DNA of 64,000 nucleotides, taken from Minisyncoccota bacterium (GTDB lineage Bacteria; Patescibacteriota; Microgenomatia; UBA1400; PJMF01). Of the stretch, positions 9,624 through 53,581 are shown piece after piece (within the stretch, counting starts at the first letter, position 1; the number at the start of each line of letters is the position of its first letter). The stretch covers positions 65,138-129,137 of the forward strand of contig JABHWM010000005.1 of NCBI GenBank assembly GCA_018657765.1, written 5' to 3'. Below the pieces are notes generated by a model that worked only from the letters and a program-made list of their open reading frames with translations, was not told the origin of the DNA and ran no database searches. Both the position numbers and the translations under genes were made by a program.

Positions 9624-9631
9624 TCAAGATT

Positions 9632-11406: not shown

Positions 11407-11417
11407 GGAAAATACAT

Positions 11418-12326: not shown

Positions 12327-12368
12327 TATTTATTCTTTTTTATTGGAAGTTAGAAAGAAAAGTTTTTT

Positions 12369-35427: not shown

Positions 35428-36375
35428 ATGAATAAAACTACCCAACAAAAAGCTGAGCTTTCACTTGTTTTTCCAATTTTCAATGAAGAAAAGATCATTC
35501 CACTATTAAATAAAGAAATAAATAAATTTGTAAAAAAATTACCATCAAAAACAGAACTTATTTTTGTTAATGATGGTAGTACTGATAAAACTCATGATCA
35601 ATTGAAAAAAATAAAAACTAAGTATCCATTCAAAATAATTAATTTTTCAAGAAATTTTGGTCATCAGGCAGCTTTGCTTGCAGGGCTACAAGAAAGTAGT
35701 GGTGAATATGTTGTTACCCTAGATGCAGATTTACAACACCCTTTGAATATAATTCCCGAGATGCTGAAGCTTCATAAGCAAGGATACGATGTTGTTCTTA
35801 CTCAGAGGATAGATGAAAAAACTATTAATAAAAGCAAACAGTTTTTTACTAAATTATTCTACAAATTTATAAATATTCTTTCTGATACAAAAGTATTAGA
35901 GAATGGATCTGATTTTCGTTCTCTGAATAGAAAAGCTCTTACAGCTCTTCTTTCTTTACCAGAACAAAGAAAATTTCTAAGGGGCATGATTCAATGGATT
36001 GGTTACAAAACGATTATTATTCCTTTTCAAGCTAAGAAAAGAGTTGAAGGAGTAAGTAAATATAGTCTGAGCAAGATGACTAATCTAGCTTTACATGGTC
36101 TTACTTCCTCTAGTACTAAGCCACTTTATTTATCTGGAATATTTAGCATAATCTTATTTATACTGGCTTTAATATATGCGATATATGTTCTTTATGTGCG
36201 TTTTTGGGGTACTGGGATAGTGGATGGCTGGGCTAGTGTTTTGTTTGTAGTGTTGATTATAGGTGGGTTTCTTTCTCTTTTCTTGGGATTGATCGGTGCT
36301 TATATTGCAGCTATTTATGATGAGACAAAGAATAGACCTGGGTTTTTTGTTAGCTCAACTTGGAATTCAAAATGA
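35428..36375 (+). CDS. GtrB/ArnC-like polyprenyl-phosphate sugar synthase (GT2 with two C-terminal TM helices)
   Basis: Blocks LSLVFPIFNEEKIIPLL, FVNDGSTDKT, FSRNFGHQAALLAGL and LDADLQHP, plus the C-terminal TM pair LYLSGIFSIILFILALIYAIYVLYV / SVLFVVLIIGGFLSLFLGLIGAYIAAIY. Confidence 0.85.
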   Translation: MNKTTQQKAELSLVFPIFNEEKIIPLLNKEINKFVKKLPSKTELIFVNDGSTDKTHDQLKKIKTKYPFKIINFSRNFGHQAALLAGLQESSGEYVVTLDADLQHPLNIIPEMLKLHKQGYDVVLTQRIDEKTINKSKQFFTKLFYKFINILSDTKVLENGSDFRSLNRKALTALLSLPEQRKFLRGMIQWIGYKTIIIPFQAKKRVEGVSKYSLSKMTNLALHGLTSSSTKPLYLSGIFSIILFILALIYAIYVLYVRFWGTGIVDGWASVLFVVLIIGGFLSLFLGLIGAYIAAIYDETKNRPGFFVSSTWNSK

Positions 36376-37853
36376 GTTGGTTAAAAAAGTTTTTTTCTAA
36401 ACCAATAGTTTGGTTTTTAATAATATCTTTTTTCTATTTATCTCCCAATTTATTAAGCCCTCATTTTTCTTACATAGATGATGGGCAAAGTTTACTAAAT
36501 GCAAAAACCGCTTTGGCTAGCAATAACCTTAATCTTTGGAAAAATATTTTATTTGAATCAAATATCGGAAGAATAAGACCATTTTATCAACTTTATTTTA
36601 TTGTTTTATATCTAATTGGAGGAGTTAATCCTCTTGTCTTTTGGCTTGGGCAAATGACTATTTTGGCTTTTACTCTCTATGGAATATGGATATTTTTAAC
36701 TAGTTTTACAGAATTAAAGAAAAAACTTAGTTTTATATTACTTACTCTATTTTTATTTTTTCCTGCAACCATTGATAATTTTTATAGATTGGGAACAGCA
36801 GAACCAAGGCAAATCCTAGGGATAATTTGGTTTTTAGTTTGGCTAAAAAAATTAAAACTTAATAAATTGAAGATTAAAGATTATTTCTTGGGTCATTTAT
36901 TATTAGCTTTTACTCTAGGAACTAAAGAAACATCACTTCTTTTATTTCCTATGATTGGATTTTTTTTTCTTATTAGTTTTTTAGTTGAAAATAAAAAGAA
37001 AATCAAGAGAAATATATTATTTTTAAGTTCATCTTTATTTTTACAAGGGATTATTTTTTATTTACTGATGCCCAAAAATCAAGGATATGGATCATCTATG
37101 ACTATCTCTATTCCAAGGTTATGGAATAGTTTATTAGTGACACGTTTGGAGCTAGCTGAGTTCTACTTACCATTATTAGCTGTTATTTTACTAACTATCG
37201 TTCGATTAAGTTCTATTTTTAATATTAAAAAATTATTTTCAATTTTAAAGAAGTTCCTCTGGCCAGGTGTATTATTACTTGGCTTTACTGAATCTTTATT
37301 TTTTGTTTGGAGTTGGCAATATCAGCTAGAGAGATATCATTATTTACCATTATTTTTTGGATTGCTCTATAGCTGTTATGAAATTAGTCAGTGGGATAAA
37401 CAGCTATTTAATAAACTAAAAAAACAATTATTTATTTTTGTTTTTATTCCTCTTTTATTACTATTTATTAGTTTTTTTCAAATGAGAGGTCTTAATTGGA
37501 AAGCTGTTTTTGAAAGATCTTATAAATACTATTCTTTTCACTACACTACATACCAAACAGCAGGGAAATTAATTGATTTTCTATATAAAGAGTTACCAGA
37601 AAATACAAGTGTCTATATAGATCATGGTGATTATGAAAAAATAGCTGATTTGGGATATTTTGCCTCTGATTTTGGTGATAGAAAAATCACTATTTTTAGT
37701 AATAACAAAAAAATAAATAATAAGTATCCCAAAATGCATTTTTATAGATCAAATTTACAGGATGCTTATAATCAAGATGAAGACAGAAAAGTTATAATCT
37801 TATTTGATTCATCTCCAGATAGATATTTTGAGAAAACAATCAAGAATTTCTGA
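36372..37853 (+). CDS. multi-pass membrane protein, probable GT-C partner of the upstream GtrB-like enzyme
   Basis: The track ORF starts at TTG 36360. ATG 36372 forms an ATGA overlap with the GtrB-like stop. The first loop has an acidic pair (FSYIDDGQSLL). About 11 hydrophobic helices then a soluble C-terminus. Confidence 0.45.
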   Translation: MSWLKKFFSKPIVWFLIISFFYLSPNLLSPHFSYIDDGQSLLNAKTALASNNLNLWKNILFESNIGRIRPFYQLYFIVLYLIGGVNPLVFWLGQMTILAFTLYGIWIFLTSFTELKKKLSFILLTLFLFFPATIDNFYRLGTAEPRQILGIIWFLVWLKKLKLNKLKIKDYFLGHLLLAFTLGTKETSLLLFPMIGFFFLISFLVENKKKIKRNILFLSSSLFLQGIIFYLLMPKNQGYGSSMTISIPRLWNSLLVTRLELAEFYLPLLAVILLTIVRLSSIFNIKKLFSILKKFLWPGVLLLGFTESLFFVWSWQYQLERYHYLPLFFGLLYSCYEISQWDKQLFNKLKKQLFIFVFIPLLLLFISFFQMRGLNWKAVFERSYKYYSFHYTTYQTAGKLIDFLYKELPENTSVYIDHGDYEKIADLGYFASDFGDRKITIFSNNKKINNKYPKMHFYRSNLQDAYNQDEDRKVIILFDSSPDRYFEKTIKNF

Positions 37854-39652: not shown

Positions 39653-40480
39653 ATGAATAATAAAATTACAGTAATCAGACCAAGACCTAAATGGCAACTA
39701 ATTAATATTCGTGAGATTTTAGAATTTTCAGAGCTTTTTTATATATTTTCTTGGAGAGATATTAAGGTTAGATATAAGCAAACTATTCTAGGTATATTGT
39801 GGGCTATTTTGCAACCCTTGTTGTCGATGATAATATTTACTATTTTCTTTGGAAATTTTGCAAAAATTCCATCAGACGGGCTTCCTTATCCTGTCTTTGT
39901 ATTATTAGGTCTTATTTTTTGGGGGTATTTTTCCAGCTCTCTTTCAAGAGCATCTACTGTGTTTATAGATAATGAAAACCTTATAAAAAAAGTATATTTC
40001 CCAAGAGAGATATTGCTATTTTCAACAGTTATAACTGCCTTCATTGATTTTTTAATTAGCTTTTTCTTATTTATAATAGTAGCTCTTTTTTATAACATTC
40101 CATTTAATTTTCTATTTTTAAGTATGGTTTTTTTATCAATTTTAATTTCTGCATTGGCTAGTACTGGACTAGGGTTACTGGTTGCTTCAATAAATATTAA
40201 ATATAGAGATGTTAGGTATATTATTCCTTTTTTTCTTCAACTAATGATTTTTATTACACCAGTTATCTACCCTTTAAGCATTGTTAGACCATCTTTTCAA
40301 TTTGTTTTGTCAATGAATCCAATGGCTGGAGTTATAAATTCTCTTAGATCTTCCCTTGCCACAAATTCAATTTCTGATAAAAATAGTTTATTTATATCAA
40401 TATTATCTTCCCTAATTATATTTCTAATTGGAATGATCTATTTTAGAAAAACAGAACGTTATTTTGCGGATTTAATATGA
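39653..40480 (+). CDS. wzm: ABC-2 type polysaccharide/teichoic acid export permease
   Basis: 275 aa, six hydrophobic helices. N-terminal block WRDIKVRYKQTILGILWAILQPLLSMIIFTIFFG is typical of Wzm/TagG/KpsM permeases. Confidence 0.85.
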   Translation: MNNKITVIRPRPKWQLINIREILEFSELFYIFSWRDIKVRYKQTILGILWAILQPLLSMIIFTIFFGNFAKIPSDGLPYPVFVLLGLIFWGYFSSSLSRASTVFIDNENLIKKVYFPREILLFSTVITAFIDFLISFFLFIIVALFYNIPFNFLFLSMVFLSILISALASTGLGLLVASINIKYRDVRYIIPFFLQLMIFITPVIYPLSIVRPSFQFVLSMNPMAGVINSLRSSLATNSISDKNSLFISILSSLIIFLIGMIYFRKTERYFADLI

Positions 40481-41697
40481 AAAAAATTATTGAAGTAAAG
40501 AACATTTCAAAAAAATATAAAATTGGTGAAAATAAGCCATATTTAACATTACGTGATTCAATATCAAGCTTTTTTACAAATTTTTTTAATAAAAACAAAG
40601 AAGATAAATTACAAAAAGATGAATTTTGGGCATTAAAAGATATTAGTTTTACGGTAAATCAGGGTGATGTTGTTGGAATAATTGGAAAAAATGGTGCTGG
40701 AAAAAGCACATTACTAAAAATTTTATCAAGAATTACAACTCCTACTTCTGGAGAAATTAAAATGAGAGGAAGAGTTGGTAGTCTCTTGGAGGTTGGAACC
40801 GGTTTTCAACAAGAATTAACTGGAAGAGAAAACATTTTTTTAAATGGATCTATTTTAGGAATGAAACAAAAAGAAATAAGTAAAAAATTTGCTGAAATAG
40901 TTGATTTTGCTGAAATAAGCAAGTTTATAGATACCCCAGTAAAACATTATAGCTCTGGAATGTATATGAGATTAGCATTTTCAATAGCTGCTCACTTGGA
41001 ACCAGAAATATTAATCATTGATGAAGTTTTAGCAGTTGGAGATCAACAATTTCAAAAAAAATGTCTTGGAAAAATAGAAGACATATCTTCCAAGGAAGGA
41101 AGAACTGTTTTATTTGTAAGTCATAATATGACAGCTATTGAATCACTATGTAAGTCAATTATTCTGCTTGAAAATGGTAAAATAATTAAAAATAAAAATA
41201 AAAATAAACAAATTTATGATTATTCGAGGATTGCAAGAAATAGCTATAAGAAAGATTTGAAAATCAAAAATTCTTTAAAAATAGAAAATGTGAAACTATC
41301 ACCCAAAAAAATAAGCTGTGGAGATAGTACTTCTTTTTTTCTTAAAATATCTTCTCTAAAAAAAACAAAAATAAATGATATTTGTTTGATAATTTCAAAT
41401 AGTCTTGGATCTAGGGTTGGAATTGTAGACCTAAGAAATGTAAATAATTACCCACTGAATGTAGGTGAAAAAATATCTTTTAATGGAGAAATTAATAATG
41501 TAAACTTAATAGAAGGAAATTATGATGTTTCATTATATATAAAATACGACAATATTAATGAAGAACATTTGTTTAATTTAGATAAGTTTTTTGTGGAATA
41601 CAAAAAAAAACGACCAGGGTTATCCCAATATCAAGCAAGTGTCAGAGGCATCATTAATTTCAATGAAAAATTTAATTATAAAATAAATAAAAAATGA
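40477..41697 (+). CDS. wzt: polysaccharide export ABC ATPase with about 150-aa C-terminal extension (Wzt-like)
   Basis: Walker A GKNGAGKST, signature YSSGMYMRLAF, Walker B ILIIDEVLAVGD, H-loop VSHNM. A KNKNKNKQ linker follows, then a non-ATPase C-terminal domain (about 41224..41694) without TM helices. Confidence 0.85.
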   Translation: MKKIIEVKNISKKYKIGENKPYLTLRDSISSFFTNFFNKNKEDKLQKDEFWALKDISFTVNQGDVVGIIGKNGAGKSTLLKILSRITTPTSGEIKMRGRVGSLLEVGTGFQQELTGRENIFLNGSILGMKQKEISKKFAEIVDFAEISKFIDTPVKHYSSGMYMRLAFSIAAHLEPEILIIDEVLAVGDQQFQKKCLGKIEDISSKEGRTVLFVSHNMTAIESLCKSIILLENGKIIKNKNKNKQIYDYSRIARNSYKKDLKIKNSLKIENVKLSPKKISCGDSTSFFLKISSLKKTKINDICLIISNSLGSRVGIVDLRNVNNYPLNVGEKISFNGEINNVNLIEGNYDVSLYIKYDNINEEHLFNLDKFFVEYKKKRPGLSQYQASVRGIINFNEKFNYKINKK

Positions 41698-42566
41698 TAA
41701 AAAAAATTCTCTCACCACTTCATTATTCTTTTGTTTTTGTAAAAAATAATTTTTTACAAAAATATAAAACAATAATATATTTTTTTATTAAAAAAACTAA
41801 TAGAATAATAAATATAAAAATTAATTTTAAAAAAATAAAACTTTATTCAAGTGGTCAAATTGCAGAACTCCTATACACATCTGAGTTTGAAAAAGATATT
41901 TTAAGCATATATTCAAAGTATTTGAAAAAAGGAGATATTATAATAGATGTTGGCGCCAATATAGGTCTTTATTCAATTATTGCAGAAAAGTTTATTGGTA
42001 AAAATGGAAAAATTTATGCCTTTGAACCTTCTGAAGAAGTTTTTTTAAAGTTCAAAAAAAATATTAAATTAAATAATTCAAAAATAATAAACTTAAATAA
42101 AAAAGCTGTTTCAAAAAAAAATGGGAAAGTTGCACTAGTAGTAGATAAATTACTTGGAGATGGATATTCATATATTTCTAAAAATAAATTATTTTTAGAT
42201 ACATACAGTCATGTAGAGTCGATAACATTAGATTATTTCTTTAAAAGAAATAATCTTAAAAAAGTAAATTTCATTAAAATAGATGTAGAGGGTGGAGAAC
42301 TATCTGTTTTAGAGGGAGCCAAAAATATCTTATTAAGCAATAAAAAGCTTGTTATTCTTCTAGAAAACTCAAATGAGGGATTAAAAAGATTCGGTAATAA
42401 TCAAAAAGATCTATACTTATTTTTAAAAAATATGGGTTTTAAAATAGCAGCATGGGATAATAATTCAAAAAAATGGACTAATAAAATTTCTCAAACTAAA
42501 AAAATAGGAAATATTTGGGCTTATAAAGGAAATATGAAAGAAAGTATTTTTGATTTAAAACCCTAG
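41694..42566 (+). CDS. FkbM-family SAM-dependent methyltransferase
   Basis: Blocks IIDVGANIGLYSIIAEK, YAFEPSEEVF and IKIDVEGGELSVLEGA. Confidence 0.75.
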   Translation: MIKKILSPLHYSFVFVKNNFLQKYKTIIYFFIKKTNRIINIKINFKKIKLYSSGQIAELLYTSEFEKDILSIYSKYLKKGDIIIDVGANIGLYSIIAEKFIGKNGKIYAFEPSEEVFLKFKKNIKLNNSKIINLNKKAVSKKNGKVALVVDKLLGDGYSYISKNKLFLDTYSHVESITLDYFFKRNNLKKVNFIKIDVEGGELSVLEGAKNILLSNKKLVILLENSNEGLKRFGNNQKDLYLFLKNMGFKIAAWDNNSKKWTNKISQTKKIGNIWAYKGNMKESIFDLKP

Positions 42567-42569
42567 ACT

Positions 42570-44207
42570 ATGAAAAAAATAAAAGCAATAGTTCTATGTG
42601 CTGGTAAAGCAAATAGAGAAATACAATCCACAATTTCTACCTCTATTAACTCTTTAGCACCAATTAATGGCAAACCAGTCATTGGTTGGATAATTGATGA
42701 TTTGCTATCAAAAAAAATAGAAACAATTACCATTGTTATAAACAAAAATCAAAATAAAATAAAAAGATATATCACTAGTGCTTATAAAATGGAATCTATT
42801 TCAGTTGAAACTACTCATGGTTCTAATATAAATCAATCAATTAAAGATGGCTTAAAAAAAGATCTAAAAAAAGACAGAGTTTTAGTAATATTAGGTGATA
42901 CTTTAATTAATGAAAAAACTCTAAATTTAAAAGAAAGTTGTGCCTTTATATCGTTAGTTGATAACCCAAAAAAATGGTGTGTTATAGAAACAGATAATTT
43001 AGGTTATATAGTTAAATATACAAATAAAATAAACTCACTTTCTATAAAAAAAAGTAAAGCGCTTGCTGGTTATTATTATTTTTCTAGCAGTAAAGATTTA
43101 AATTTAGCTGTTAATAAAACCATTAGCAATAAACTGGAAAATATTAGCGATGTTTTAATGGAATATAGTAAAAAGAATAAAATAAAGGCAATATCAACTA
43201 AGAATTGGTTTGACTTTGGAAATATTGAAAACTTTTTAAAAGCAAAGAGAGAATTATTTTTACCTAGATTTTTTAATTCAATAAGAGTTAATAGTAATTT
43301 AAATATTCTTTATAAAAAAAGCTCCAATATCAAAAAATTAGAAGATGAATACAACTGGTATAAAAAAATACCAAAAAACCTACAACCATTCACTCCAAGA
43401 ATCATTTCTTTTGTGAAGAAGATAAAAAGTGCAGAAATAACTCAAGAGTACTATGGATATCCAACTCTTTCAGAATTATTTATATTTAGTGATTTTGATG
43501 CTGAAATGTGGAAAATTATTATTAAAAAAATATTAATGGTTCATGAAGAATTCAGAAAAAACAAAAATAAAATAAATAAAAATCAAATAAATAAAATGTA
43601 TTATTTGAAAACAATTAATAGATTAGAAAAATCAAAAATAAATAAAGATAACAAAAAAATAATAGAAGAAAAAACACTAATTTTAAATAATAAAAAGTTA
43701 AGGGGATATTTGGAGTTAAAAAAGGATATTTATAAATATTCTAATAAATTGTCAGAAAATTTAGAAAGCAGCATTATTCATGGTGATTTTTGTTTTTCAA
43801 ATATTTTATTTGATTTTTCAAGTCAAATAGTAAAATTAATAGATCCTAGAGGTAGTTTTGGAAATAAATCTATATTTGGCGACCCACGGTATGACATAGC
43901 AAAATTAAGACATAGCTTGTCTGGAGGATATGATTATATAAAATCAAACATGTTTGTTTTAAAAAAGCTAGGTGATAGTTTTTCATTAAAAATTGATAAA
44001 AATAAAAAACTAGATGACTTATCAAGTTACTTTGATATGCAAATATCAAAAAACGGATATAATAAAAGGGAAATAAAATTCATTGAAGGAATATTATTTT
44101 TATCAATGGTTCCACTACATGATGATAAACCAGACCATCAGTTAGCCTTTTATTTAATTGGAGTTGAAATATTAAATGAAGTATTTAGTTATGGAAAGTC
44201 TATATGA
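42570..44207 (+). CDS. fusion protein: N-terminal nucleotidyltransferase plus C-terminal APH/choline-kinase-type kinase (LicC-LicA-like architecture)
   Basis: N-terminus: AIVLCAGKANRE...LAPINGKPVIGWIIDDL and NWFDFGNIENF (sugar/phospho-alcohol nucleotidyltransferase fold). C-terminus: Brenner-type kinase motif IIHGDFCFSNILFD followed by KLIDPRG (43779..43855). Confidence 0.6.
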   Translation: MKKIKAIVLCAGKANREIQSTISTSINSLAPINGKPVIGWIIDDLLSKKIETITIVINKNQNKIKRYITSAYKMESISVETTHGSNINQSIKDGLKKDLKKDRVLVILGDTLINEKTLNLKESCAFISLVDNPKKWCVIETDNLGYIVKYTNKINSLSIKKSKALAGYYYFSSSKDLNLAVNKTISNKLENISDVLMEYSKKNKIKAISTKNWFDFGNIENFLKAKRELFLPRFFNSIRVNSNLNILYKKSSNIKKLEDEYNWYKKIPKNLQPFTPRIISFVKKIKSAEITQEYYGYPTLSELFIFSDFDAEMWKIIIKKILMVHEEFRKNKNKINKNQINKMYYLKTINRLEKSKINKDNKKIIEEKTLILNNKKLRGYLELKKDIYKYSNKLSENLESSIIHGDFCFSNILFDFSSQIVKLIDPRGSFGNKSIFGDPRYDIAKLRHSLSGGYDYIKSNMFVLKKLGDSFSLKIDKNKKLDDLSSYFDMQISKNGYNKREIKFIEGILFLSMVPLHDDKPDHQLAFYLIGVEILNEVFSYGKSI

Positions 44208-44563
44208 GAATAATTATTGATCTAGACGGAGTAATTTGTCCAATAAAGCTCCCTAATCAGACTTATGGAGAACTGAAACCAATCTATGGCTCAATTAAAA
44301 AAATTAAGAAATTAAAAAAAGAAGGTCATCATATAATAATTAATACTGCCAGAAATATGGCAACGCAAAAAAGCAATATTGGATTAGTTAATAAAAATAT
44401 CACTCTAATAACTTTAAAATGGCTGGAAAAATATAAGGTAGAATTTGATGAAATATTTTTTGGAAAACCTAATGGAGATGTTTACATTGACGACAGAGCA
44501 CTAAAATTTGATGGTTGGGAAACCATAACCACTAGAAATTTAGAAAAAGAATTTAAGAAATAA
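44204..44563 (+). CDS. small HAD-superfamily phosphatase
   Basis: 119 aa. Motif I IIIDLDGVI, motif II INTAR, motif III/IV K...GDVYIDDRA. ATGA overlap with the upstream gene. Confidence 0.65.
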   Translation: MRIIIDLDGVICPIKLPNQTYGELKPIYGSIKKIKKLKKEGHHIIINTARNMATQKSNIGLVNKNITLITLKWLEKYKVEFDEIFFGKPNGDVYIDDRALKFDGWETITTRNLEKEFKK

Positions 44564-45277
44564 ATGAAAATAATAATGCCAATGGCTGGGCTGGGATCTA
44601 GGTTTAAAAATAGTGACTATTCATTGCCAAAACCACTAATAATGGTTGAAGATAAGCCGATGTTTTTAAAATCATTAGAAAGCATAGATGGAATTAACTA
44701 TTCAGACATATATTTTATTGTTAAAAGGGAACATGACCTAAAACATGCTATTTCAGATATAATTAAAAAAAATGTTCCTAATTCTCATGTTTTTTTAGTA
44801 GATGATACTCCAAATGGACAGTTGATGTCTATTTTATCAATTGAAGAAAAAATTAATAAAGATGAAGACTTATTAATTATTAGCTCGGATACATTAGTTG
44901 TATCTAATTTAAAAAAGAAAGTTTTAAGTTTACCAGAAAGTTATAAGGGATTAATATCGCTCATAAACAAAAAAGGTGATCAGTGGAGCTTTGCAAAAAT
45001 AAATAGTTCTGGAGATGTAACTGAAGTTGCAGAAAAGAAGAGAATATCTAGTTTAGCCAGTACTGGAATATATTATTTTAAAAATGGGAAAGAATTTGTA
45101 AAATTATCTAAAAAAATAATAAAGAAAAAAATAAAAGTAAATGATGAATATTATGTAATGCCAGTATACCAAGAATATATAAATGCTAAATTTAAAATTA
45201 GCTCATCAATTGCCAAAGAAATGTGGGATATGGGAACTCCAAAATCATTAAAAGAATTTTTAAATAAAAAACAATGA
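44564..45277 (+). CDS. sugar-phosphate nucleotidyltransferase (GT-A-like NTP transferase fold)
   Basis: Blocks IIMPMAGLGSRF, LPKPLIMVEDKPM and a C-terminal MWDMGTPKSL. Confidence 0.65.
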   Translation: MKIIMPMAGLGSRFKNSDYSLPKPLIMVEDKPMFLKSLESIDGINYSDIYFIVKREHDLKHAISDIIKKNVPNSHVFLVDDTPNGQLMSILSIEEKINKDEDLLIISSDTLVVSNLKKKVLSLPESYKGLISLINKKGDQWSFAKINSSGDVTEVAEKKRISSLASTGIYYFKNGKEFVKLSKKIIKKKIKVNDEYYVMPVYQEYINAKFKISSSIAKEMWDMGTPKSLKEFLNKKQ

Positions 45278-46362
45278 TTAAAATAGCTATTCAAAACATC
45301 CACTTGGCTCCAAATATTTTTGACATAGGAATTCATGATTATATTTTAGAATTTATAAAAAATGGATATGCTCCATATATTTATTTTGAAGGTCTTTCTT
45401 TTAGAGAAAAAATATCAATTACTAACTCTCTAATAAGAGGAAATCACTCTAAAATTAGTTTAAAAAAAATAGAACCAATCTTCAATATTAATGAATTAAA
45501 TAGTAAGTGTGATGTTTTATTAAATTTTAATACTTATACAAAAGACCATGATTTTACTAAAAATATAAAAAAATTCAATGGGTTGAAAATTTGGCATGTA
45601 GGAGATTACTTTTGGAATGAGCCAGCAAGTGATATAAATAAAAGATTTGAAAAATTTGGAATAGATTATTTATTTGGATATTCATCTCATGATAAGTATT
45701 GCAAATATTTTCAAAAAACTTTTCCTAAATACATAGATAAAGTTTTACCAATTCCATTTGGATATCAAAAAAGATTTAAAGAAGTAAACTCCTTTAAAAA
45801 TAGAATAAATAAGTGTATTGCTCTTGGGAGTGTGAATCCACTTCGTCCACTAAATTACCCTGTGAATAACTATATAGAGTCAGCAGATTTTTTCCCAGAC
45901 GATCAATGGTTTCATAAGTTCCGAAGAAAAATAGTACTGAATAAAAATTATTTGGGAGGTGAAATTGATTCTATGCTTCCAGAATTTCCAAAAATAAAAA
46001 ACTTTGATTACGACTTAGTTGAAAAACTAAATAATTACAAGATGTTTACTTCATGTGAAAGCATATTTAATTTTCCTCCAGCAAAAACTTTTGAAGGAAT
46101 TGCTTCTGGCTCTGTTTTAATTTGCAGTGATCATGAGTGCAATAAAGAATATGGTTTTGTTGATGGCATTAACTGTGTAATGTATAAAAAACATAATATT
46201 ACTGATTTTAGAAAAAAAATAAGATATTATCAAAGTCATGAAAAAGAACTAATAAATATTAAAATAAATGGAAAAAAGCATGTAACAAAAAACTATAACC
46301 ATGTTTCAATATCAAAAAATATGTATAAGCAAATAAAAAATACTTGGAATAAAAAAAGTTAA
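45274..46362 (+). CDS. CgeB-like GT-B half-domain glycosyltransferase (Glyco_trans_1_2-like C-terminus)
   Basis: The C-terminal block FEGIASGSVLICSDHECNKEYGFVDGINCVMYK...RKKIRYYQSHEKEL resembles the CgeB/DUF3880-type GT family. The N-terminus has no recognisable motif. Confidence 0.4.
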   Translation: MIKIAIQNIHLAPNIFDIGIHDYILEFIKNGYAPYIYFEGLSFREKISITNSLIRGNHSKISLKKIEPIFNINELNSKCDVLLNFNTYTKDHDFTKNIKKFNGLKIWHVGDYFWNEPASDINKRFEKFGIDYLFGYSSHDKYCKYFQKTFPKYIDKVLPIPFGYQKRFKEVNSFKNRINKCIALGSVNPLRPLNYPVNNYIESADFFPDDQWFHKFRRKIVLNKNYLGGEIDSMLPEFPKIKNFDYDLVEKLNNYKMFTSCESIFNFPPAKTFEGIASGSVLICSDHECNKEYGFVDGINCVMYKKHNITDFRKKIRYYQSHEKELINIKINGKKHVTKNYNHVSISKNMYKQIKNTWNKKS

Positions 46363-46365
46363 ACA

Positions 46366-48129
46366 ATGATCAAATTATTTTTTTACAAAATCACAGAATT
46401 TATAAAAATAGAAAATAAAAAATATTTTCTCTATCATTTTTTTATTAGAAATCTATCAATGGAGCCTTGGCAACATTTTTATAAAACATTAAAAAAATCA
46501 AGATTGAATAAAATTGAAATTACAAATTTAAATAACAAAAAAAAACCAATAATTGTATTTTCAGCATGCCAAAATAAAAAGAACAAGGGAGATTCTAAGT
46601 TTAATGGTGGTATTAAATTACAAAATCTATGGGTTAAAATTCTCAGAGATCATGGATATGATGCTTATATAATGACATATGATGGGAAACATGCTAATTG
46701 GTTGATAGATCACCAACCACACATATCTTATAAAAGATTATCTAATTTAAAAAATAATCATGAAAATATTCACTATGTAACAACTTGGTTAAATGCTGAT
46801 TCATTCATTAACTTAGCTGATAAAATTTATTATTTTGATGCAGAGATCTCACACACTTTATCATCACAAAGGGAAGTACTTAGAAAACTTTTTAAAAAAA
46901 ATAAAATTATCAAGGTTGGTACTCATTCAAAAACTCAAGTTGGATGGTATTTACAAAACCAAAATTTATCACCAAACTTTATAAATGAGTGGTCTGATAT
47001 AAAAATTTGGAAACAAAATAGCAATAAGAGGGTTTTGGGTAAAATTGGATACATGAACGAAGAAAAGAACACTAAAACTGAAATTAACGAGATAAAACAA
47101 GTTTGTGAATTACACGGAATTGACGTAGATTTTATTGAAATAAATGGAGATGAAAAAAAAGTTATTTCCCAAATGCAATCATGTGATATTTTCTTGGGAA
47201 TGAATCAAGGAAAAAACATACTGTGGGGAGAAGGTTGCCCAAGATCTCAGCAAGAAGCCATGCATACTGGTTGTGCTGTTATAGCCTATGATGTAATTGG
47301 AAATAGAGAATACATCTTTGATGACATAACTGGATGTATGATTGAAAATAAAAGATCAGACTTAATGGCTTTAAAAATAATTGAGATAATAAATAATAAA
47401 AAATTTAAAGAAAAAATTAGAAAAAATGGCTACGAATTTATAAAGAATGTATTTTCTGAAAATGGTAAAATTAAATTATTGGAGAAATTTTTAGATTTAG
47501 AAAAAGAAGAAGAGGATAAATATGTTGCAAATCTAGATGAGTTGAAATTTGTTTTCAAATCAGCTATTTTTCTAACAGATTCAGAAGTTAGAAGTCTTCA
47601 AAAATATGCAAAAAAAACAAAAGGTAGTATCCTAGAAATAGGAGCAGCCTATGGAGCTTCATCTTCATTGCTTCTTGCGCATTCATCTGAAAATAAGAAA
47701 GTATTTTCAATTGATCCATTCATTAAAGACTCAGAAGGCCTATTCAAAGCAACTGCTAATAAATGTAAAAAAAACGTGAATAGATTCTTAAAAAATGTTA
47801 ATCTTGAAAAAAAATATAAAAATTGGCAATTAATTGAAAAATACAGTGATGATGCTGTTAAAAATTGGAAAAGGAAGATTGGATTATTATTTATAGATGG
47901 TAATCATAAATATGATTTTGTCAAAAATGATTTTGAAAATTGGATAAAATTTATCCCAAAGGATGGATATATACTAATACATGATTCTTGTAATAAAAAC
48001 TTAATAAATAAAAATAAATATAAGTTTGGTTGGTATGGACCATCAAAACTAGCTAAAGAACTTAGAAGTGATAAAAGAGTTAAATTAATTGAGGAATCAT
48101 CATCTCTATCAATTTGGAAAAAGAAATAA
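46366..48129 (+). CDS. fusion protein: GT-B-like glycosyltransferase domain plus C-terminal class I SAM methyltransferase
   Basis: Middle block QQEAMHTGCAVIAYDVIGNREYIFDDITGCMIEN (GT1-type C-terminal half). C-terminus (about 47518..48129) has GSILEIGAAYGASSS, LFIDGNHKYDFVKNDFENW and GYILIHD, a CmcI/Methyltransf_24-like pattern. Start uncertain. Confidence 0.55.
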   Translation: MIKLFFYKITEFIKIENKKYFLYHFFIRNLSMEPWQHFYKTLKKSRLNKIEITNLNNKKKPIIVFSACQNKKNKGDSKFNGGIKLQNLWVKILRDHGYDAYIMTYDGKHANWLIDHQPHISYKRLSNLKNNHENIHYVTTWLNADSFINLADKIYYFDAEISHTLSSQREVLRKLFKKNKIIKVGTHSKTQVGWYLQNQNLSPNFINEWSDIKIWKQNSNKRVLGKIGYMNEEKNTKTEINEIKQVCELHGIDVDFIEINGDEKKVISQMQSCDIFLGMNQGKNILWGEGCPRSQQEAMHTGCAVIAYDVIGNREYIFDDITGCMIENKRSDLMALKIIEIINNKKFKEKIRKNGYEFIKNVFSENGKIKLLEKFLDLEKEEEDKYVANLDELKFVFKSAIFLTDSEVRSLQKYAKKTKGSILEIGAAYGASSSLLLAHSSENKKVFSIDPFIKDSEGLFKATANKCKKNVNRFLKNVNLEKKYKNWQLIEKYSDDAVKNWKRKIGLLFIDGNHKYDFVKNDFENWIKFIPKDGYILIHDSCNKNLINKNKYKFGWYGPSKLAKELRSDKRVKLIEESSSLSIWKKK

Positions 48130-48869
48130 TGAGTAAAAATTTATCGATAATAACACTATCTAAAAATAATCATAAGCAGCTAAAAAAAACAATTGAAAGT
48201 ACTTTTTGTCTAAGAGAAAACGGAACAAAACAAATAGTAATTGATAGTAGCTCTAAAGAAACTTTTAAAAAAAATAAAATATATGTCTCGAATAAAAAAA
48301 ACTGTCTAATATTTTATCAAAAACCAAGTGGAATTTCTTCAGGATTCAACTATGGGATATCAAAAGTTAAAAAAGGATGGATATGGATACTCAATAGTGG
48401 TGATGATTCAATAATTGATTTAAAAACTAAACCCTTTTTAGAGATTCTTTTATCAAAAACAAAAGCAGGAGCAATTTTATTTGAAATTTTAATAGAGAAT
48501 AAAAGATATGTTAGGCCTCCTTTTTTTTCTCTTTGGCCACCAAATTTTAACTGGATTCCCCACCCAGGAAGTATTATTAATAAAAAAACTTATGATAAAG
48601 TTGGCAACTATGATAAAAAATATAAAATAGCCATGGATGGAGAATTCTGGTTTAGATTGCTTGGAAGCGATAAATTAACTATTGATATGATTTCTTTTCC
48701 AATTGCAAATTTTAAATTAGATGGAACTTCTTCAAAAAATCTAAAATTAAAAAATAAAGAAATACTTAGAATAAATTTTAAATATTTGCCTTTAATAATT
48801 AAGAGGTTTTTAAACCAGGTACTTCTTTTTATAAGAGTAAGTATTCAAAATATTAAATTATTTTTATGA
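48129..48869 (+). CDS. family 2 glycosyltransferase (divergent)
   Basis: The track ORF starts at 48114; ATG 48129 overlaps the upstream TAA (TAATG). Blocks LSIITLSKNNHKQLKKTIES, VIDSSSKE and ILNSGDDS. Confidence 0.55.
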   Translation: MSKNLSIITLSKNNHKQLKKTIESTFCLRENGTKQIVIDSSSKETFKKNKIYVSNKKNCLIFYQKPSGISSGFNYGISKVKKGWIWILNSGDDSIIDLKTKPFLEILLSKTKAGAILFEILIENKRYVRPPFFSLWPPNFNWIPHPGSIINKKTYDKVGNYDKKYKIAMDGEFWFRLLGSDKLTIDMISFPIANFKLDGTSSKNLKLKNKEILRINFKYLPLIIKRFLNQVLLFIRVSIQNIKLFL

Positions 48870-49963
48870 CAAAAATATTACTATTTGCAAACATAGGAAC
48901 TTTTGGTGGGACAAAAACACACCTAAAAAACTTATTAAATTATTATACTAATAAAAAGACTGATATTTGGATTGCATCTGACACATATGAAAATGTTTTA
49001 AAAGTACTAGATCAATTAAAGTTAAAAAAAATTAAAGTAATAAGAATTCCAAAAAAACCAAAAATTTTAGTATTTTTTTTTAATTACCTGATTCCCATTA
49101 ATATCTTATTTGATTTAATTATTGTAAAATTATTGATTATAAAAATAAAACCAAATTTTTTTATTGTAACTCCAGCATCATTAACTTGGTATATTTCATC
49201 CTCTATTATTGACTTAAGAAAAATATTTATAATACATTCATATCCAGAAAAAAAAATTTCTTCTATTTTTAAATTCTTATTAAAAATAAATAAACAAAAA
49301 ACAAAGATAATAACTGTATCTAAAGAATCTAAAAATAAAATAGTAAGGAATTGGGGAGTTAATTCTGATTATGTCTATAACCCTCCTGAAAAATATGTCT
49401 TAAAAAAATTAAAAAAAACCATAATCCTAACTTCAGGACATCTTGAATGGTATAAAGATCCAATGAGCTGGTTGGAGGTTGTAAAAAAGATATCTTTAGT
49501 TAAACCTGATATTAAATATAAATTTATTTGGATTGGATCTGGAAGCCTGAAAGATAAAGTAAAAAACTTAATAAAAAACCATAAATTACAAAAATACTGT
49601 GAAATCATTGATCCTAAGAAAGATCTTTCTTCACTTATTTCTAAAACTTACATATATTTTCAACCAAGTATAATTGAAAGTCAGGGAATAGTCGTTACAT
49701 CTGTTCAATATAATAAAATACCTGTTGTTTCAACAACAGCAGGAGGATTAAGTGAAATGGTAATTAATAATAAAACAGGACTTACTGTTAACCCCAAAGA
49801 TACTACAGCTATGGCTGAATCAATCATAAAAATGATAAATAACCCAAAAAAAGTGATTAAAATGGGTTTAGAAGGAAAAAAGCATATTGAAAAAATAGCA
49901 AGTGAACAAAATTGGAAGAATAGAATGGACTCCTTCCATAAATCAATGGATTTGGAAATATGA
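48866..49963 (+). CDS. GT-B fold glycosyltransferase (GT4)
   Basis: Block FQPSIIESQGIVVTSVQYNKIPVVSTTAGGLSEMV (E-x7-E-like) and a typical GT4 length. Confidence 0.65.
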   Translation: MTKILLFANIGTFGGTKTHLKNLLNYYTNKKTDIWIASDTYENVLKVLDQLKLKKIKVIRIPKKPKILVFFFNYLIPINILFDLIIVKLLIIKIKPNFFIVTPASLTWYISSSIIDLRKIFIIHSYPEKKISSIFKFLLKINKQKTKIITVSKESKNKIVRNWGVNSDYVYNPPEKYVLKKLKKTIILTSGHLEWYKDPMSWLEVVKKISLVKPDIKYKFIWIGSGSLKDKVKNLIKNHKLQKYCEIIDPKKDLSSLISKTYIYFQPSIIESQGIVVTSVQYNKIPVVSTTAGGLSEMVINNKTGLTVNPKDTTAMAESIIKMINNPKKVIKMGLEGKKHIEKIASEQNWKNRMDSFHKSMDLEI

Positions 49964-50856
49964 ACACACCAATAGTTTTAATAATTTTCAAACGGAGTCA
50001 ATCTGTTAAAAAAATAATAGATATTCTCAGGATATTTAAACCAACAAACATATATGTTATTGCTGACGGCCCAAGAGAAATCAATGAGAAAAGTGATTGT
50101 AAAAAAGCTAGAGAAGAAATTGATAAAATTGATTGGAATTGTTCTATAAGTAAAAATTACTCTTTAAAAAATCTTGGTTTAAAAAAAAGATTCAAATCTG
50201 GCCTTGATTGGGTTTTTGAAAATGAAAGTAAGGCAGTTATCTTAGAAGATGATTGTATTCCAGATCCATCATTCTTCAAATACTGTGATGAATTGCTCAC
50301 TAAGTATAAAAATAATAAAAAAATACTAACCATATCTGGAAATAACTTTAATTTTACTGAGGAAAGTGAGCTAAAAAATAGTTACTTTTTTTCAAAATAC
50401 CCACTAATCTGGGGATGGGCTACTTGGAAAAGAACTTGGGATTTGTATGATGAAGATATTAGTGACTGGAACATAAATAAAACTAAATGGCTTGACAAAA
50501 TATATAAATCTAAAATAATTAAAAAATATTGGAAATTAATATTTAACAAACTATCCAAAGAAGAAATAAATACATGGGATTACCAATTAACTTATCTTTC
50601 TTTAAAAGAAAATGGGTTAAACATTATTCCTTCAATAAATTTAGTTAAAAATATTGGAGTCGATTCAAAATCAACCAATATTAACAAAAAATCTAGAAAT
50701 ACAAATTTAAGAGCAAATAAAATTAAATTTCCGTTAAATCATCCAAAAAAAATATCTACCCAAGAAAATATTGAATCAAAAATAGAAGAAAGATGTTACC
50801 TTAACTCTAGAATTAAGGTTTCCTTATTTATTAAATCTATTCTTGGAATTATTTAA
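49960..50856 (+). CDS. GT-A fold glycosyltransferase of the HlpA-like/GnT-I-like type (copy 1)
   Basis: Blocks PIVLIIFKRSQSVKKII, IYVIADGPRE, VILEDDCIPDPSFF and YPLIWGWATWKRTWDLYD. Clear paralog of ORF 53582..54475. Confidence 0.55.
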   Translation: MNTPIVLIIFKRSQSVKKIIDILRIFKPTNIYVIADGPREINEKSDCKKAREEIDKIDWNCSISKNYSLKNLGLKKRFKSGLDWVFENESKAVILEDDCIPDPSFFKYCDELLTKYKNNKKILTISGNNFNFTEESELKNSYFFSKYPLIWGWATWKRTWDLYDEDISDWNINKTKWLDKIYKSKIIKKYWKLIFNKLSKEEINTWDYQLTYLSLKENGLNIIPSINLVKNIGVDSKSTNINKKSRNTNLRANKIKFPLNHPKKISTQENIESKIEERCYLNSRIKVSLFIKSILGII

Positions 50857-50860
50857 TTAA

Positions 50861-53579: not shown

Positions 53580-53581
53580 TA

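What the first reader, a model, noticed from the sequence alone, without database searches (positions are those of the whole stretch)
40477..44207. Wzt with a C-terminal extension followed directly by a methyltransferase and a kinase-domain protein: possible chain-capping and cap-recognition logic
Seen in sequence: the ABC ATPase carries a linker (KNKNKNKQ) and about 150 extra residues with no TM helix (about 41224..41694). The next two genes are an FkbM-type methyltransferase and a protein with an HGD...N...D kinase motif. Established knowledge: in E. coli O8/O9a-type ABC-dependent O-antigen synthesis, WbdD stops chain growth by adding a methyl or phosphomethyl cap. The C-terminal carbohydrate-binding domain of Wzt must recognise that cap before export. 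Inference: the same length-control and export-licensing logic may operate here in a likely monoderm, with the cap enzymes split into separate genes.
Basis: partly seen in the sequence, partly recalled or inferred. Interest (0 to 1): 0.65.

Follow-up and report, generated by a model that had tools for sequence, protein, structure and literature searches.

The report
Glycan exporter with cap-reading domain
A sugar-polymer export pump in a likely single-membrane bacterium carries a real end-of-chain-reading domain and is always partnered with a methyltransferase gene, so the known "cap the chain, then export it" logic probably applies, but the supposed capping kinase belongs to a separate sugar-activation cassette.

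Summary
Wzt (40477-41697, 406 aa) has an ABC ATPase domain, a hinge helix and about 150 extra residues. No Pfam or PDB sequence search recognises that extension on its own. A profile of its homologues hits the Aquifex aeolicus Wzt carbohydrate-binding domain (E=4e-7). A confident AlphaFold model (pLDDT 89.6) is a beta-sandwich whose best PDB matches include all three solved Wzt carbohydrate-binding domains.

The next gene is an FkbM-family methyltransferase. In 17 of 21 assessable loci from other organisms that carry this domain subfamily, an FkbM gene lies directly downstream of wzt, while the other genes vary. This supports a methyl-cap plus cap-recognition pair, as in E. coli O8, A. aeolicus and Geobacillus stearothermophilus.

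The "kinase" reading is wrong. That 545-aa protein fuses a nucleotidyltransferase to an aminoglycoside-phosphotransferase-fold small-molecule kinase. It is the first gene of a three-gene cassette (fusion, small HAD phosphatase, second nucleotidyltransferase) kept together in about 65-77 of 80 genomes across many phyla. None of those genomes has this Wzt domain nearby. It most likely makes a nucleotide-activated precursor, so it is not a WbdD-like terminator.

Verdict: partly supported; a new member of a known kind.

The parts
39653..40480 (+). wzm, ABC-2 permease of the glycan exporter (275 aa)
   Evidence: PF01061 ABC2_membrane E=7e-20. The best NCBIfam match is the galactan Wzm/RfbD permease, E=2e-24 but below that model's curated cutoff. 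Its stop overlaps the wzt start (ATGA).
40477..41199 (+). wzt, nucleotide-binding domain (residues 1 to about 241)
   Evidence: PF00005 E=5e-24. The best PDB matches are A. aeolicus Wzt at E=5e-63, then TarH/TagH.
41200..41238 (+). wzt hinge/linker helix (residues about 242-254, IYDYSRIARNSY) after the KNKNKNKQ stretch
   Evidence: Helix at residues 3-15 of the modelled fragment, with lower pLDDT of 63-68. Tyr249 is nearly invariant in 40 homologues.
41251..41694 (+). wzt C-terminal carbohydrate-binding domain, a divergent Wzt_C subfamily (residues about 259-406)
   Evidence: No direct Pfam or PDB sequence hit. A profile of 40 homologues hits A. aeolicus Wzt CBD 6o14/8dky at E=4e-7. 11 of 40 full-length homologues hit PF14524. 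The AF2 model has pLDDT 89.6 and is all-beta. Foldseek matches include 8dky, 6o14, 2r5o and 5hno.
41694..42566 (+). FkbM-family SAM-dependent methyltransferase (290 aa), the candidate chain-capping enzyme
   Evidence: PF05050 E=7.5e-22 and TIGR01444 E=4.7e-31. The start overlaps the wzt stop. An FkbM gene lies directly downstream of wzt in 17 of 21 assessable loci with this CBD subfamily. The syntenic orthologue in L001 passes the V_cholerae_RfbT cutoff.
42570..44207 (+). Bifunctional nucleotidyltransferase (residues 5-228) fused to an APH-fold small-molecule kinase (residues about 228-545; HGD at 404-406). First gene of a precursor-activation cassette.
   Evidence: PF00483 E=8e-11 and a weak PF01636 hit. 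The architecture is conserved at about 40% identity across phyla. The kinase-domain model has pLDDT 89.8. The best Foldseek matches are APH(3'), APH(4) and APH(2''); WbdD is not among the 50 shown.
44204..44563 (+). Small HAD-superfamily phosphatase (119 aa), second gene of the cassette
   Evidence: TIGR01689 'capsule biosynthesis phosphatase' E=1.9e-23, below its curated cutoff. Found next to the fusion gene in about 65-68 of 80 genomes.
44564..45277 (+). Stand-alone sugar-phosphate nucleotidyltransferase (237 aa), third gene of the cassette
   Evidence: PF00483 E=4.7e-13. Found next to the fusion gene in about 75-77 of 80 genomes.
45274..46362 (+). Glycosyltransferase (Glyco_trans_1_2), syntenic with L001
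   Evidence: PF13524 E=1e-8. 58% identical orthologue at the same position in L001.
46366..48129 (+). GT4 glycosyltransferase fused to a C-terminal Methyltransf_24 domain (587 aa), an alternative candidate for a polymerising and capping enzyme
   Evidence: PF00534 E=2e-12 (residues 245-357) and PF13578 E=5e-20 (residues 423-540), plus a weak hit to rhamnosyl O-methyltransferase PF04989. 49% identical orthologue in L001.

Best explanation
This is the export-and-termination core of an ABC-transporter-dependent cell-surface glycan pathway in a low-GC, probably monoderm (CPR-like) bacterium.

Proposed mechanism:
1. Glycosyltransferases of the locus build the polymer on a lipid carrier at the cytoplasmic face (inferred).
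2. The FkbM-family methyltransferase encoded directly after wzt O-methylates the non-reducing terminal sugar, which stops elongation (inferred).
3. The C-terminal beta-sandwich of Wzt, a divergent member of the Wzt carbohydrate-binding-domain family, recognises that methylated end and licenses export through Wzm/Wzt. The fold is shown; the ligand is inferred.

This matches the methyl-cap systems of E. coli O8, Aquifex aeolicus and Geobacillus stearothermophilus. It does not match the phosphomethyl system of E. coli O9a.

The 545-aa 'kinase' is not part of the cap machinery. It fuses a nucleotidyltransferase to an aminoglycoside-phosphotransferase-fold kinase. Together with the small HAD phosphatase and the second nucleotidyltransferase it forms a portable three-gene cassette. 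The cassette most likely converts a phosphorylated central metabolite into a nucleotide-activated sugar (or similar alcohol) used as a building block. Two known pathways share this enzyme set: phosphatase, then anomeric kinase, then nucleotidyltransferase (MupP/AmgK/MurU), or kinase, then phosphatase, then nucleotidyltransferase (HddA/GmhB/HddC). The substrate is unknown.
For: The Wzt extension is a carbohydrate-binding domain (CBD):
- The profile of the C-terminal 167 aa of 40 homologues hits A. aeolicus Wzt CBD (6o14, 8dky) at E=4e-7.
- The full-length profile aligns through the CBD of 8dku/7k2t, profile positions 34-387 against chain residues 15-379.
- 11 of 40 co-linear homologues hit PF14524, best E=4e-12.
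- The AF2 model has pLDDT 89.6 and pTM 0.80, with 11 beta-strands.
- Foldseek top hits are the A. aeolicus Wzt CBD, including 8dky bound to 3-O-methyl-mannose (E=7e-6, TM 0.55/0.63). E. coli O9a Wzt-C 2r5o follows at E=1e-4 and the O12 Wzt CBD 5hno at E=9e-4.

The methyltransferase is linked to the CBD:
- Of 22 loci with this CBD subfamily, 21 are assessable.
- An FkbM gene lies directly downstream on the same strand in 17, is the second gene in 1, and is replaced by a Methyltransf_24 gene in 1.
- These loci include a diderm-type locus with Wza/Wzc-like genes (L004). The surrounding glycosyltransferases differ from locus to locus.
- The L001 orthologue passes the Pfam cutoff for V. cholerae RfbT. 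RfbT methylates the terminal O-antigen sugar (PMC5051702, PMC9929944).
- Precedents: the A. aeolicus CBD binds 3-O-Me-Man but not Man (PMC9445017). G. stearothermophilus wzm-wzt-wsaE makes a 2-O-methyl cap (PMC2943079).

The kinase is not a terminator:
- It carries a fused NTP_transferase domain.
- Its fold matches APH enzymes.
- At least 571 genome hits carry the same fusion.
- The HAD and second nucleotidyltransferase genes are adjacent in about 65-77 of 80 genomes, across Bacteroidota, Chloroflexota, Melainabacteria, Proteobacteria, Planctomycetota and others.
- 0 of 80 have this CBD within 10 kb and 2 of 80 have an FkbM hit.
- Conversely, only 2 of the 22 CBD-subfamily loci carry the cassette.

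Monoderm context:
- An LCP ligase lies at 635-1759.
- The closest named Wzt relatives come from Nomurabacteria, Microgenomates and Pacebacteria.
Against: - No chemistry is available, so terminal versus internal methylation is not shown.
- The locus has five methyltransferase domains. The GT4-Methyltransf_24 fusion (46366-48129) is an equally plausible WsaE-like terminator.
- FkbM-family enzymes also methylate non-terminal positions and small molecules.
- The window's own FkbM protein does not hit the RfbT model.
- The methyl-stacking Trp362 of the A. aeolicus CBD is not visibly conserved in the profile alignment.
- The window's CBD fails the Pfam Wzt_C model by itself.
- Only three control loci with other CBD types were examined, and one of them also has FkbM downstream. 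Enrichment of the pair is therefore not rigorously quantified or corrected for phylogeny.
- FkbM lacks any coiled-coil ruler, so how chain length would be set is open.
Confidence: 0.55

Rival explanations
1. An E. coli O9a-type phosphomethyl cap is made by a WbdD split into two genes. The 545-aa protein phosphorylates the terminal sugar, FkbM methylates the phosphate, and the Wzt CBD reads the methylphosphate.
For: The Wzt, methyltransferase and kinase-motif genes are adjacent and translationally coupled. The kinase catalytic motif is intact and invariant. K. pneumoniae O7 shows that methyltransferase-kinase terminators can differ from WbdD, with a kinase domain resembling a small-molecule kinase (AmiN) (PMC11231755).
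Against: - The kinase is fused to a nucleotidyltransferase.
- It belongs to a cassette with a HAD phosphatase and a second nucleotidyltransferase that occurs in about 65-77 of 80 genomes without this Wzt or FkbM.
- 20 of 22 loci with this CBD subfamily lack the kinase yet mostly keep FkbM.
- Foldseek finds APH enzymes; WbdD is not among the 50 matches shown.
- PDB sequence searches give no WbdD hit.
Confidence: 0.07
2. The CBD does read a chain terminus, but the cap is not made by the adjacent FkbM enzyme. Either the GT4-Methyltransf_24 fusion methylates the end (WsaE-like), or a distinct terminal residue is added from the cassette's NDP-sugar. FkbM would then methylate internal residues or a nucleotide-sugar precursor.
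For: - The GT-methyltransferase fusion is conserved in L001 and resembles the WsaE concept (PMC2943079).
- The locus holds five methyltransferase domains.
- In L007 a Methyltransf_24 gene replaces FkbM after wzt.
- Non-methyl caps such as Kdo are known (PMC11231755).
- A CPR control locus has nonulosonic-acid genes after wzt.
Against: - The CBD-FkbM pairing holds in 17-18 of 21 loci.
- By tblastn with the window's proteins, the GT4-MT24 fusion and the cassette have full counterparts only in L001; L002 matches a GT4-only gene.
- A CBD subfamily shared at 25-31% identity is more simply explained by a shared ligand feature made by the one shared enzyme.
Confidence: 0.25
3. The C-terminal domain has the Wzt_C fold but does not act as a cap sensor here. 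It could bind the polymer backbone, only dimerise or regulate the ATPase, or be a relic. The FkbM adjacency would then reflect inherited operon order.
For: - The window's sequence fails PF14524.
- The ligand-contacting Trp of A. aeolicus is not evidently conserved.
- V. cholerae Inaba strains lack the methyl group yet still display O antigen, so terminal methylation is not always an export checkpoint (PMC5051702).
Against: - All three solved Wzt CBDs bind terminal caps (PMC9445017, PMC11231755).
- The domain carries strongly conserved surface-type motifs (DLR, EGxY, RG) across 40 members at only about 27% mean identity, which argues for a conserved binding function.
- The pair persists while neighbouring genes are reshuffled.
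Confidence: 0.1

Closest known systems
Aquifex aeolicus WzmWzt with a methyl-cap-binding CBD (PDB 6o14, 8dky, 8dku; PMC9445017)
   Same: - Same architecture: ABC NBD, hinge helix and C-terminal beta-sandwich in about 400 aa.
- It is the best sequence-profile match (E=4e-7) and the best fold match.
- Its ligand is a plain 3-O-methyl sugar cap, which fits a methyltransferase-only terminator.
   Different: - CBD identity is only about 17-18%.
- The window's CBD belongs to a separate subfamily with its own motifs (RVAIxDLR, LPLVEGxY, PYxxxRG).
- The methyl-stacking Trp362 is not evidently conserved.
- The host is a probable monoderm, so the polymer is not an LPS O antigen.
E. coli O8/O9a Wzt-C plus WbdD (PDB 2r5o; PMC3482155)
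   Same: Both use cap-dependent export through a Wzt C-terminal domain, and 2r5o is a significant fold match (E=1e-4, TM 0.56-0.58). O8 uses a methyl-only cap.
   Different: - WbdD is a single membrane-associated protein with methyltransferase, with or without kinase, and a coiled-coil ruler.
- Here the candidate terminator is a 290-aa stand-alone FkbM-family enzyme with no coiled coil.
- The nearby kinase is unrelated to the WbdD kinase and is fused to a nucleotidyltransferase.
Geobacillus stearothermophilus NRS 2004/3a S-layer glycan cluster wzm-wzt-wsaE (PMC2943079)
   Same: - It is a monoderm with an ABC-transporter-dependent glycan.
- The methyltransferase-bearing gene overlaps the end of wzt.
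- A 2-O-methyl cap is proposed to terminate growth and be read by Wzt.
- The cluster has lower G+C than its surroundings, as seen here.
   Different: - WsaE has an N-terminal methyltransferase followed by two rhamnosyltransferase modules.
- Here the gene after wzt is a stand-alone FkbM enzyme, and a GT4-Methyltransf_24 fusion lies 4 kb further on.
- No S-layer protein or oligosaccharyltransferase gene was identified. An LCP ligase is present instead.
Vibrio cholerae O1 RfbT/WbeT (Pfam PF05575)
   Same: It is a stand-alone methyltransferase of the same superfamily that methylates the terminal sugar of an O antigen (PMC5051702). The syntenic orthologue in L001 passes the PF05575 cutoff, and those of L003-L005 hit it weakly.
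   Different: - The window's own protein does not hit PF05575.
- In V. cholerae the methyl group is dispensable for O-antigen display (Inaba strains), so it is not an export checkpoint there.
MupP / AmgK / MurU MurNAc salvage route (PMC5371407), and HddA / GmhB / HddC heptose activation (from my own knowledge)
   Same: The enzyme set matches the window's cassette: a HAD phosphatase, a sugar kinase (APH-fold in AmgK) and an NTP_transferase-family nucleotidyltransferase that together yield an NDP-sugar. Both window nucleotidyltransferases give weak MurU-model hits (E about 3e-4), and the stand-alone one a weak HddC hit (E=7e-6).
   Different: - All hits to those equivalog models are far below their cutoffs.
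- Here the kinase is fused to an extra nucleotidyltransferase domain and the HAD protein is only 119 aa.
- The cassette sits in polysaccharide loci.
- The substrate is unknown, and I found no characterised member.

Membership tests
Wzt C-terminal carbohydrate-binding domain (Pfam PF14524 Wzt_C) | Located at the C terminus of the Wzt ABC nucleotide-binding protein, encoded next to wzm | tested here: met
   NBD at residues 53-184 followed by the extension in one ORF; wzm lies directly upstream.
Wzt C-terminal carbohydrate-binding domain (Pfam PF14524 Wzt_C) | Matches the Wzt_C sequence model | tested here: inconclusive
   The window's domain gives no Pfam hit even at E<=10. However, 11 of 40 co-linear homologues hit PF14524 (best E=4e-12), and the family profile hits solved Wzt CBDs 6o14/8dky at E=4e-7.
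Wzt C-terminal carbohydrate-binding domain (Pfam PF14524 Wzt_C) | Beta-sandwich fold like 2r5o, 5hno and 6o14 | tested here: met
   The AF2 model has pLDDT 89.6 and is all-beta. Foldseek gives 8dky E=7e-6 (TM 0.55/0.63), 2r5o E=1e-4 (TM 0.56-0.58) and 5hno E=9e-4.
Wzt C-terminal carbohydrate-binding domain (Pfam PF14524 Wzt_C) | Binds the modified non-reducing terminus of the polymer and is required for its export | not testable with these tools
   This needs binding assays and a reconstituted export system. The only indirect support is the conserved FkbM partner gene.
WbdD-type chain terminator (E. coli O9a / K. pneumoniae O3) | Kinase and methyltransferase domains in one protein, acting in turn on the chain terminus | tested here: not met
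   The methyltransferase (290 aa) and the kinase-bearing protein (545 aa) are separate genes. The kinase is fused to NTP_transferase instead.
WbdD-type chain terminator (E. coli O9a / K. pneumoniae O3) | Kinase domain homologous to the WbdD kinase | tested here: not met
   PDB sequence searches give no WbdD hit. The top 50 Foldseek matches are APH enzymes and a few protein kinases, with no WbdD.
WbdD-type chain terminator (E. coli O9a / K. pneumoniae O3) | C-terminal coiled-coil ruler / membrane-association region | not tested
   No coiled-coil predictor was run. The FkbM domain spans residues 85-251 of 290, which leaves no room for a long coiled coil.
FkbM-family methyltransferase (PF05050 / TIGR01444) | Matches the family models above their curated cutoffs | tested here: met
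   PF05050 scores 78.7 bits against a cutoff of 22.7. TIGR01444 scores 108.2 bits against a cutoff of 37.7.
FkbM-family methyltransferase (PF05050 / TIGR01444) | [quoted passage not shown] | not testable with these tools
   There is only a family-level link: the L001 orthologue passes PF05575 (32.8 bits against a cutoff of 27.9), while the window's protein does not hit it.
Sugar-phosphate nucleotidyltransferase fused to an APH-fold kinase (unnamed family of about 540-556 aa proteins) | Co-linear full-length match with invariant HGDxCFSN and LIDPRG motifs | tested here: met
   38-44% identity over 98-99% of the length to more than 100 proteins. The motifs are invariant in 40 sequences. At least 571 genome hits were found.
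Sugar-phosphate nucleotidyltransferase fused to an APH-fold kinase (unnamed family of about 540-556 aa proteins) | Encoded next to a roughly 120-aa HAD phosphatase and a roughly 240-aa nucleotidyltransferase | tested here: met
   The window has both (44204-44563 and 44564-45277). The same holds in about 65-68 and 75-77 of 80 genomes.

The most novel reading that the evidence does not exclude
A distinct, previously undescribed subfamily of Wzt carbohydrate-binding domains is invisible to the Pfam Wzt_C model in this and most of its aligned homologues. Together with a stand-alone FkbM-type methyltransferase it forms a portable two-gene 'cap-and-check' module. The module is conserved from CPR-like monoderms to diderms with Wza/Wzc, while the rest of each locus is reshuffled. 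The terminator has no coiled-coil ruler, so chain length would be set by enzyme stoichiometry alone. Separately, the neighbouring cassette (nucleotidyltransferase-kinase fusion, mini-HAD phosphatase, nucleotidyltransferase), present in at least 571 genome hits (GTDB species representatives), would be an uncharacterised route to a nucleotide-activated sugar.
Probability: 0.4. Interest if true: 0.5.

Novelty: new member of a known kind. Interest (0 to 1): 0.35.

Why it matters
- Cap-dependent export is the quality-control step of ABC-transporter-dependent glycan assembly. It has been worked out in a handful of Gram-negative O-antigen systems and proposed for one Gram-positive S-layer glycan.
- A Wzt carbohydrate-binding domain that standard models miss, consistently paired with a small FkbM methyltransferase, gives a simple genomic marker for methyl-capped polymers in uncultivated lineages, CPR-like bacteria included.
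- It also offers a minimal two-protein system for binding and termination studies.
- Correcting the kinase assignment prevents a wrong 'phosphomethyl cap' annotation.
- The correction also points to a very widespread, uncharacterised three-gene precursor cassette whose product is unknown.

Tried and rejected
- Direct Pfam (E<=10) and PDB phmmer searches with the 161-aa extension gave nothing meaningful.
- A word-indexed homologue search with the extension alone found nothing. The full-length query and the exhaustive representative search were needed instead: 138 relatives at E<=1e-3, and those of full Wzt length (about 400-430 aa) match at their C terminus; many other hits are shorter fragments.
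A 10-sequence subset worked.
One fold search failed to connect and was repeated.
- tblastn missed divergent FkbM genes in L105 and L107. Pfam found them.
- Literature searches for a characterised member of the cassette found nothing.

Ideas rejected:
- A WbdD-like split kinase is contradicted by the fusion, the fold and the synteny.
- A LicC-LicA (CDP-choline) fusion has the same domain order, but there is no Choline_kinase hit. The best N-terminal matches are sugar-1-phosphate nucleotidyltransferases, and the model does not explain the conserved HAD and second nucleotidyltransferase.
- A classical heptose pathway would need GmhA and a GHMP kinase, and neither is present.

Full report
**Observation**

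The window is low in G+C (about 23-35%) and consists almost entirely of + strand envelope-glycan genes. The three genes of the finding are at the stated coordinates:
- wzt, 40477-41697 (406 aa)
- an FkbM-family methyltransferase, 41694-42566 (290 aa)
- a 545-aa ORF, 42570-44207

wzm (39653-40480) lies directly upstream. The stop/start overlaps at wzm/wzt and wzt/fkbM are ATGA. Pfam and NCBIfam confirm ABC2_membrane for Wzm, ABC_tran for Wzt residues 53-184, and FkbM for the next gene (PF05050 E=7.5e-22, TIGR01444 E=4.7e-31). The best solved relatives of the Wzt ATPase domain are A. aeolicus Wzt (E=5e-63) and the teichoic-acid exporters TarH/TagH. The KNKNKNKQ stretch and about 150 further residues are present, and the HGD...N...D motif is present in the third protein.

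The third protein starts with an NTP_transferase domain (residues 5-228). It is followed by a small HAD phosphatase (44204-44563) and another nucleotidyltransferase (44564-45277). The locus also contains four further methyltransferase domains.

**Is the Wzt extension a carbohydrate-binding domain (CBD)?**

On its own it is invisible. It gives no Pfam hit at E<=10, no meaningful PDB sequence hit and no word-indexed homologue.

The full-length protein has many co-linear homologues of 400-430 aa at 45-57% identity, some of which carry PF14524. In an alignment of 40 such proteins, 11 hit Wzt_C (best E=4e-12). The full-length profile aligns with A. aeolicus Wzt through its CBD. A profile of the C-terminal parts alone hits the isolated A. 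aeolicus CBD structures 8dky and 6o14 at E=4e-7. An exhaustive phmmer search of 1.84 billion representatives found 138 relatives of the extension. In those of full Wzt length it lies at the C terminus.

AlphaFold2 with this alignment gives a confident model (pLDDT 89.6, pTM 0.80): one N-terminal helix followed by 11 beta-strands. Foldseek against the PDB returns the following:
- the A. aeolicus Wzt CBD as the top hits, including the complex with 3-O-methyl-mannose
- E. coli O9a Wzt-C (2r5o, E=1e-4)
- the Kdo-binding O12 Wzt CBD (5hno, E=9e-4)

The rest of the list is beta-sandwich accessory domains of GH3 glycosidases. The domain is a divergent subfamily with its own motifs (RVAIxDLR, LPLVEGxY, PYxxxRG).

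**The methyltransferase**

I examined the gene neighbourhoods of Wzt proteins with this CBD subfamily:
- seven from the protein search (L001-L007)
- fourteen more from a metagenome scan with a CBD pattern (L095-L108), analysed by tblastn and Pfam

With the window this makes 22 loci, of which 21 have enough downstream sequence.

| What follows wzt | Loci |
|---|---|
| FkbM gene directly downstream, same strand | 17 |
| FkbM as the second gene (L006) | 1 |
| Methyltransf_24 gene instead (L007) | 1 |
| Weak FkbM-like match on the opposite strand (L099) | 1 |
| Nothing; wzt ends the operon (L098) | 1 |

The neighbouring glycosyltransferases differ from locus to locus. One locus (L004) is of diderm type, with Wza- and Wzc-like genes. 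The pair is therefore kept while the rest is reshuffled.

Three control Wzt proteins with other CBD types gave different pictures:
- nonulosonic-acid synthesis genes (L008)
- a GT4 followed by a class I methyltransferase (L009)
- an FkbM gene (L010)

This control set is small, so the enrichment is suggestive rather than proven.

The syntenic FkbM orthologue of L001 passes the Pfam cutoff for V. cholerae RfbT, and three others hit it weakly; the window's own protein does not. RfbT/WbeT methylates the terminal sugar of the O1 antigen (PMC5051702, PMC9929944). The A. aeolicus CBD binds 3-O-methyl-mannose but not mannose (PMC9445017). In the monoderm G. stearothermophilus, the overlapping wzm-wzt-wsaE genes are proposed to make and read a 2-O-methyl cap (PMC2943079).

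**The 'kinase'**

The 545-aa protein belongs to a tightly conserved family of 540-556-aa proteins. Members are 38-44% identical over the whole length and carry invariant HGDxCFSN and LIDPRG motifs. A model of the C-terminal 318 residues (pLDDT 89.8) matches aminoglycoside phosphotransferases APH(3'), APH(4), APH(2'') and APH(7''). WbdD is not among the 50 matches shown, and PDB sequence searches find no WbdD.

A scan of one genome per species found at least 571 hits. I analysed 80 loci, spanning Chloroflexota, Acidobacteriota, Bacteroidota, Melainabacteria, Proteobacteria, Planctomycetota, Spirochaetota, a CPR genome and others:
- the HAD phosphatase gene is adjacent in about 65-68
- the second nucleotidyltransferase gene is adjacent in about 75-77
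- no other gene is conserved
- none has this Wzt CBD within 10 kb
- two have an FkbM hit

Conversely, only the window and its close relative L001 among the 22 CBD loci carry the cassette. The kinase is thus part of a self-contained, portable precursor-activation cassette. Its enzyme set parallels MupP/AmgK/MurU (PMC5371407) or the heptose route HddA/GmhB/HddC (my own knowledge). The substrate is unknown, and I found no characterised member.

**Mechanism proposed**

1. The polymer is assembled on a lipid carrier by the many GT2 and GT4 enzymes of the locus (inferred).
2. One building block comes from the cassette (inferred).
3. FkbM methylates the terminal sugar and stops growth (inferred from synteny and family precedent).
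4. The Wzt CBD binds the methylated end and licenses export. The fold is shown; the ligand is inferred.
5. After export the polymer is probably attached to the wall by the LCP ligase encoded at 635-1759 (inferred).

**Rivals**

- The GT4-Methyltransf_24 fusion (46366-48129), rather than FkbM, may make the cap.
- The cap may be a special residue rather than a methyl group.
- The CBD may have a non-cap role.
- The O9a-type phosphomethyl model is the least likely.

**Comparison and novelty**

The system works like the methyl-cap ABC-transporter pathways of E. coli O8, A. aeolicus and G. stearothermophilus. It is not a WbdD system: the single-polypeptide feature and the kinase-homology feature were tested and not met, and the coiled coil was not formally tested. 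It is best filed as a new member of a known kind. There are two modest additions. One is a CBD subfamily missed by Pfam that is consistently paired with a stand-alone FkbM gene. The other is a widespread uncharacterised cassette. Interest is moderate to low (0.35).

Noticed in passing
window 42570-45277; loci L011-L090: A three-gene cassette (nucleotidyltransferase/APH-fold kinase fusion, HAD phosphatase of about 120 aa, nucleotidyltransferase of about 240 aa) is conserved as a unit in polysaccharide loci across many phyla. At least 571 genome hits carry it, including one contig labelled Nitrosopumilus. I found no characterised member and the product is unknown.
   Followed up: partly
window 42582-42680 (residues 5-37 of the 545-aa protein): The glycine-rich signature loop of the fused nucleotidyltransferase domain is atypical. 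It reads LCAGKANR here and LCGGxIN in the family consensus, against the usual GxGTR(L/M). The GDT and Lys/Asp motifs further on are invariant. This domain may differ in function from the canonical second nucleotidyltransferase.
   Followed up: no
window 46366-48129: A 587-aa fusion of a GT4 glycosyltransferase with a C-terminal Methyltransf_24 domain, with a weak rhamnosyl O-methyltransferase hit. It is conserved in L001. It resembles the WsaE idea of a polymerising enzyme that carries its own capping methyltransferase, with the domain order reversed.
   Followed up: partly
window 41694-55218: Five methyltransferase domains sit in one glycan locus: FkbM, Methyltransf_24, Methyltransf_11 and two Methyltransf_23. 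This suggests a heavily O-methylated polymer, or several polymers.
   Followed up: no
window 40001-54000: G+C drops to 23-27% from about wzt onwards, against 28-35% in most of the rest of the window. Serotype-specific, horizontally exchanged glycan clusters show the same pattern (also noted for S-layer glycan clusters in PMC2943079).
   Followed up: no
window 635-1759 (- strand): A LytR-CpsA-Psr (LCP) family protein (PF03816, E=1e-29) is the likely ligase that attaches glycopolymers to peptidoglycan. This fits a monoderm envelope.
   Followed up: no
window 1879-3678, 7812-9623, 9614-11353, 24397-26145, 26237-27832, 59183-60874: At least six large polytopic proteins (531-603 aa) give weak PMT/PMT_2, PTPS_related or GT87 (GT-C-like) hits. 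Several similar-sized ORFs have no hit at all (12369-14102, 17921-19588, 19640-21283, 29685-31385, 36360-37853, 57571-59190). This is an unusual density of GT-C-type enzymes.
   Followed up: no
window 3675-5180 and 56394-57656: Two Wzx-like flippases (Polysacc_synt_3 and Polysacc_synt) lie in the same window as the Wzm/Wzt exporter. At least two export routes for surface glycans are therefore encoded side by side.
   Followed up: no
window 22606-24372: An arginyl-tRNA synthetase gene sits in the middle of the glycan genes. The region is therefore chromosomal rather than a mobile island.
   Followed up: no
L008 (Nomurabacteria-type contig), 6001-12406: In a CPR control locus, a Wzt with a classical Wzt_C domain is followed by a dehydratase, aminotransferase, acetyltransferase, NeuB and a CMP-transferase. 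These are nonulosonic-acid genes and may indicate a nonulosonic-acid cap analogous to the Kdo cap of K. pneumoniae O12/O4.
   Followed up: no
L091-L094: The identical Wzt protein occurs on at least 22 contigs from several metagenomes, including a sample labelled Saanich Inlet 200 m. In one of them (L092) the gene after the HAD phosphatase starts 12 nt later and is 233 aa rather than 237, which hints at population-level variation downstream of the conserved core.
   Followed up: no
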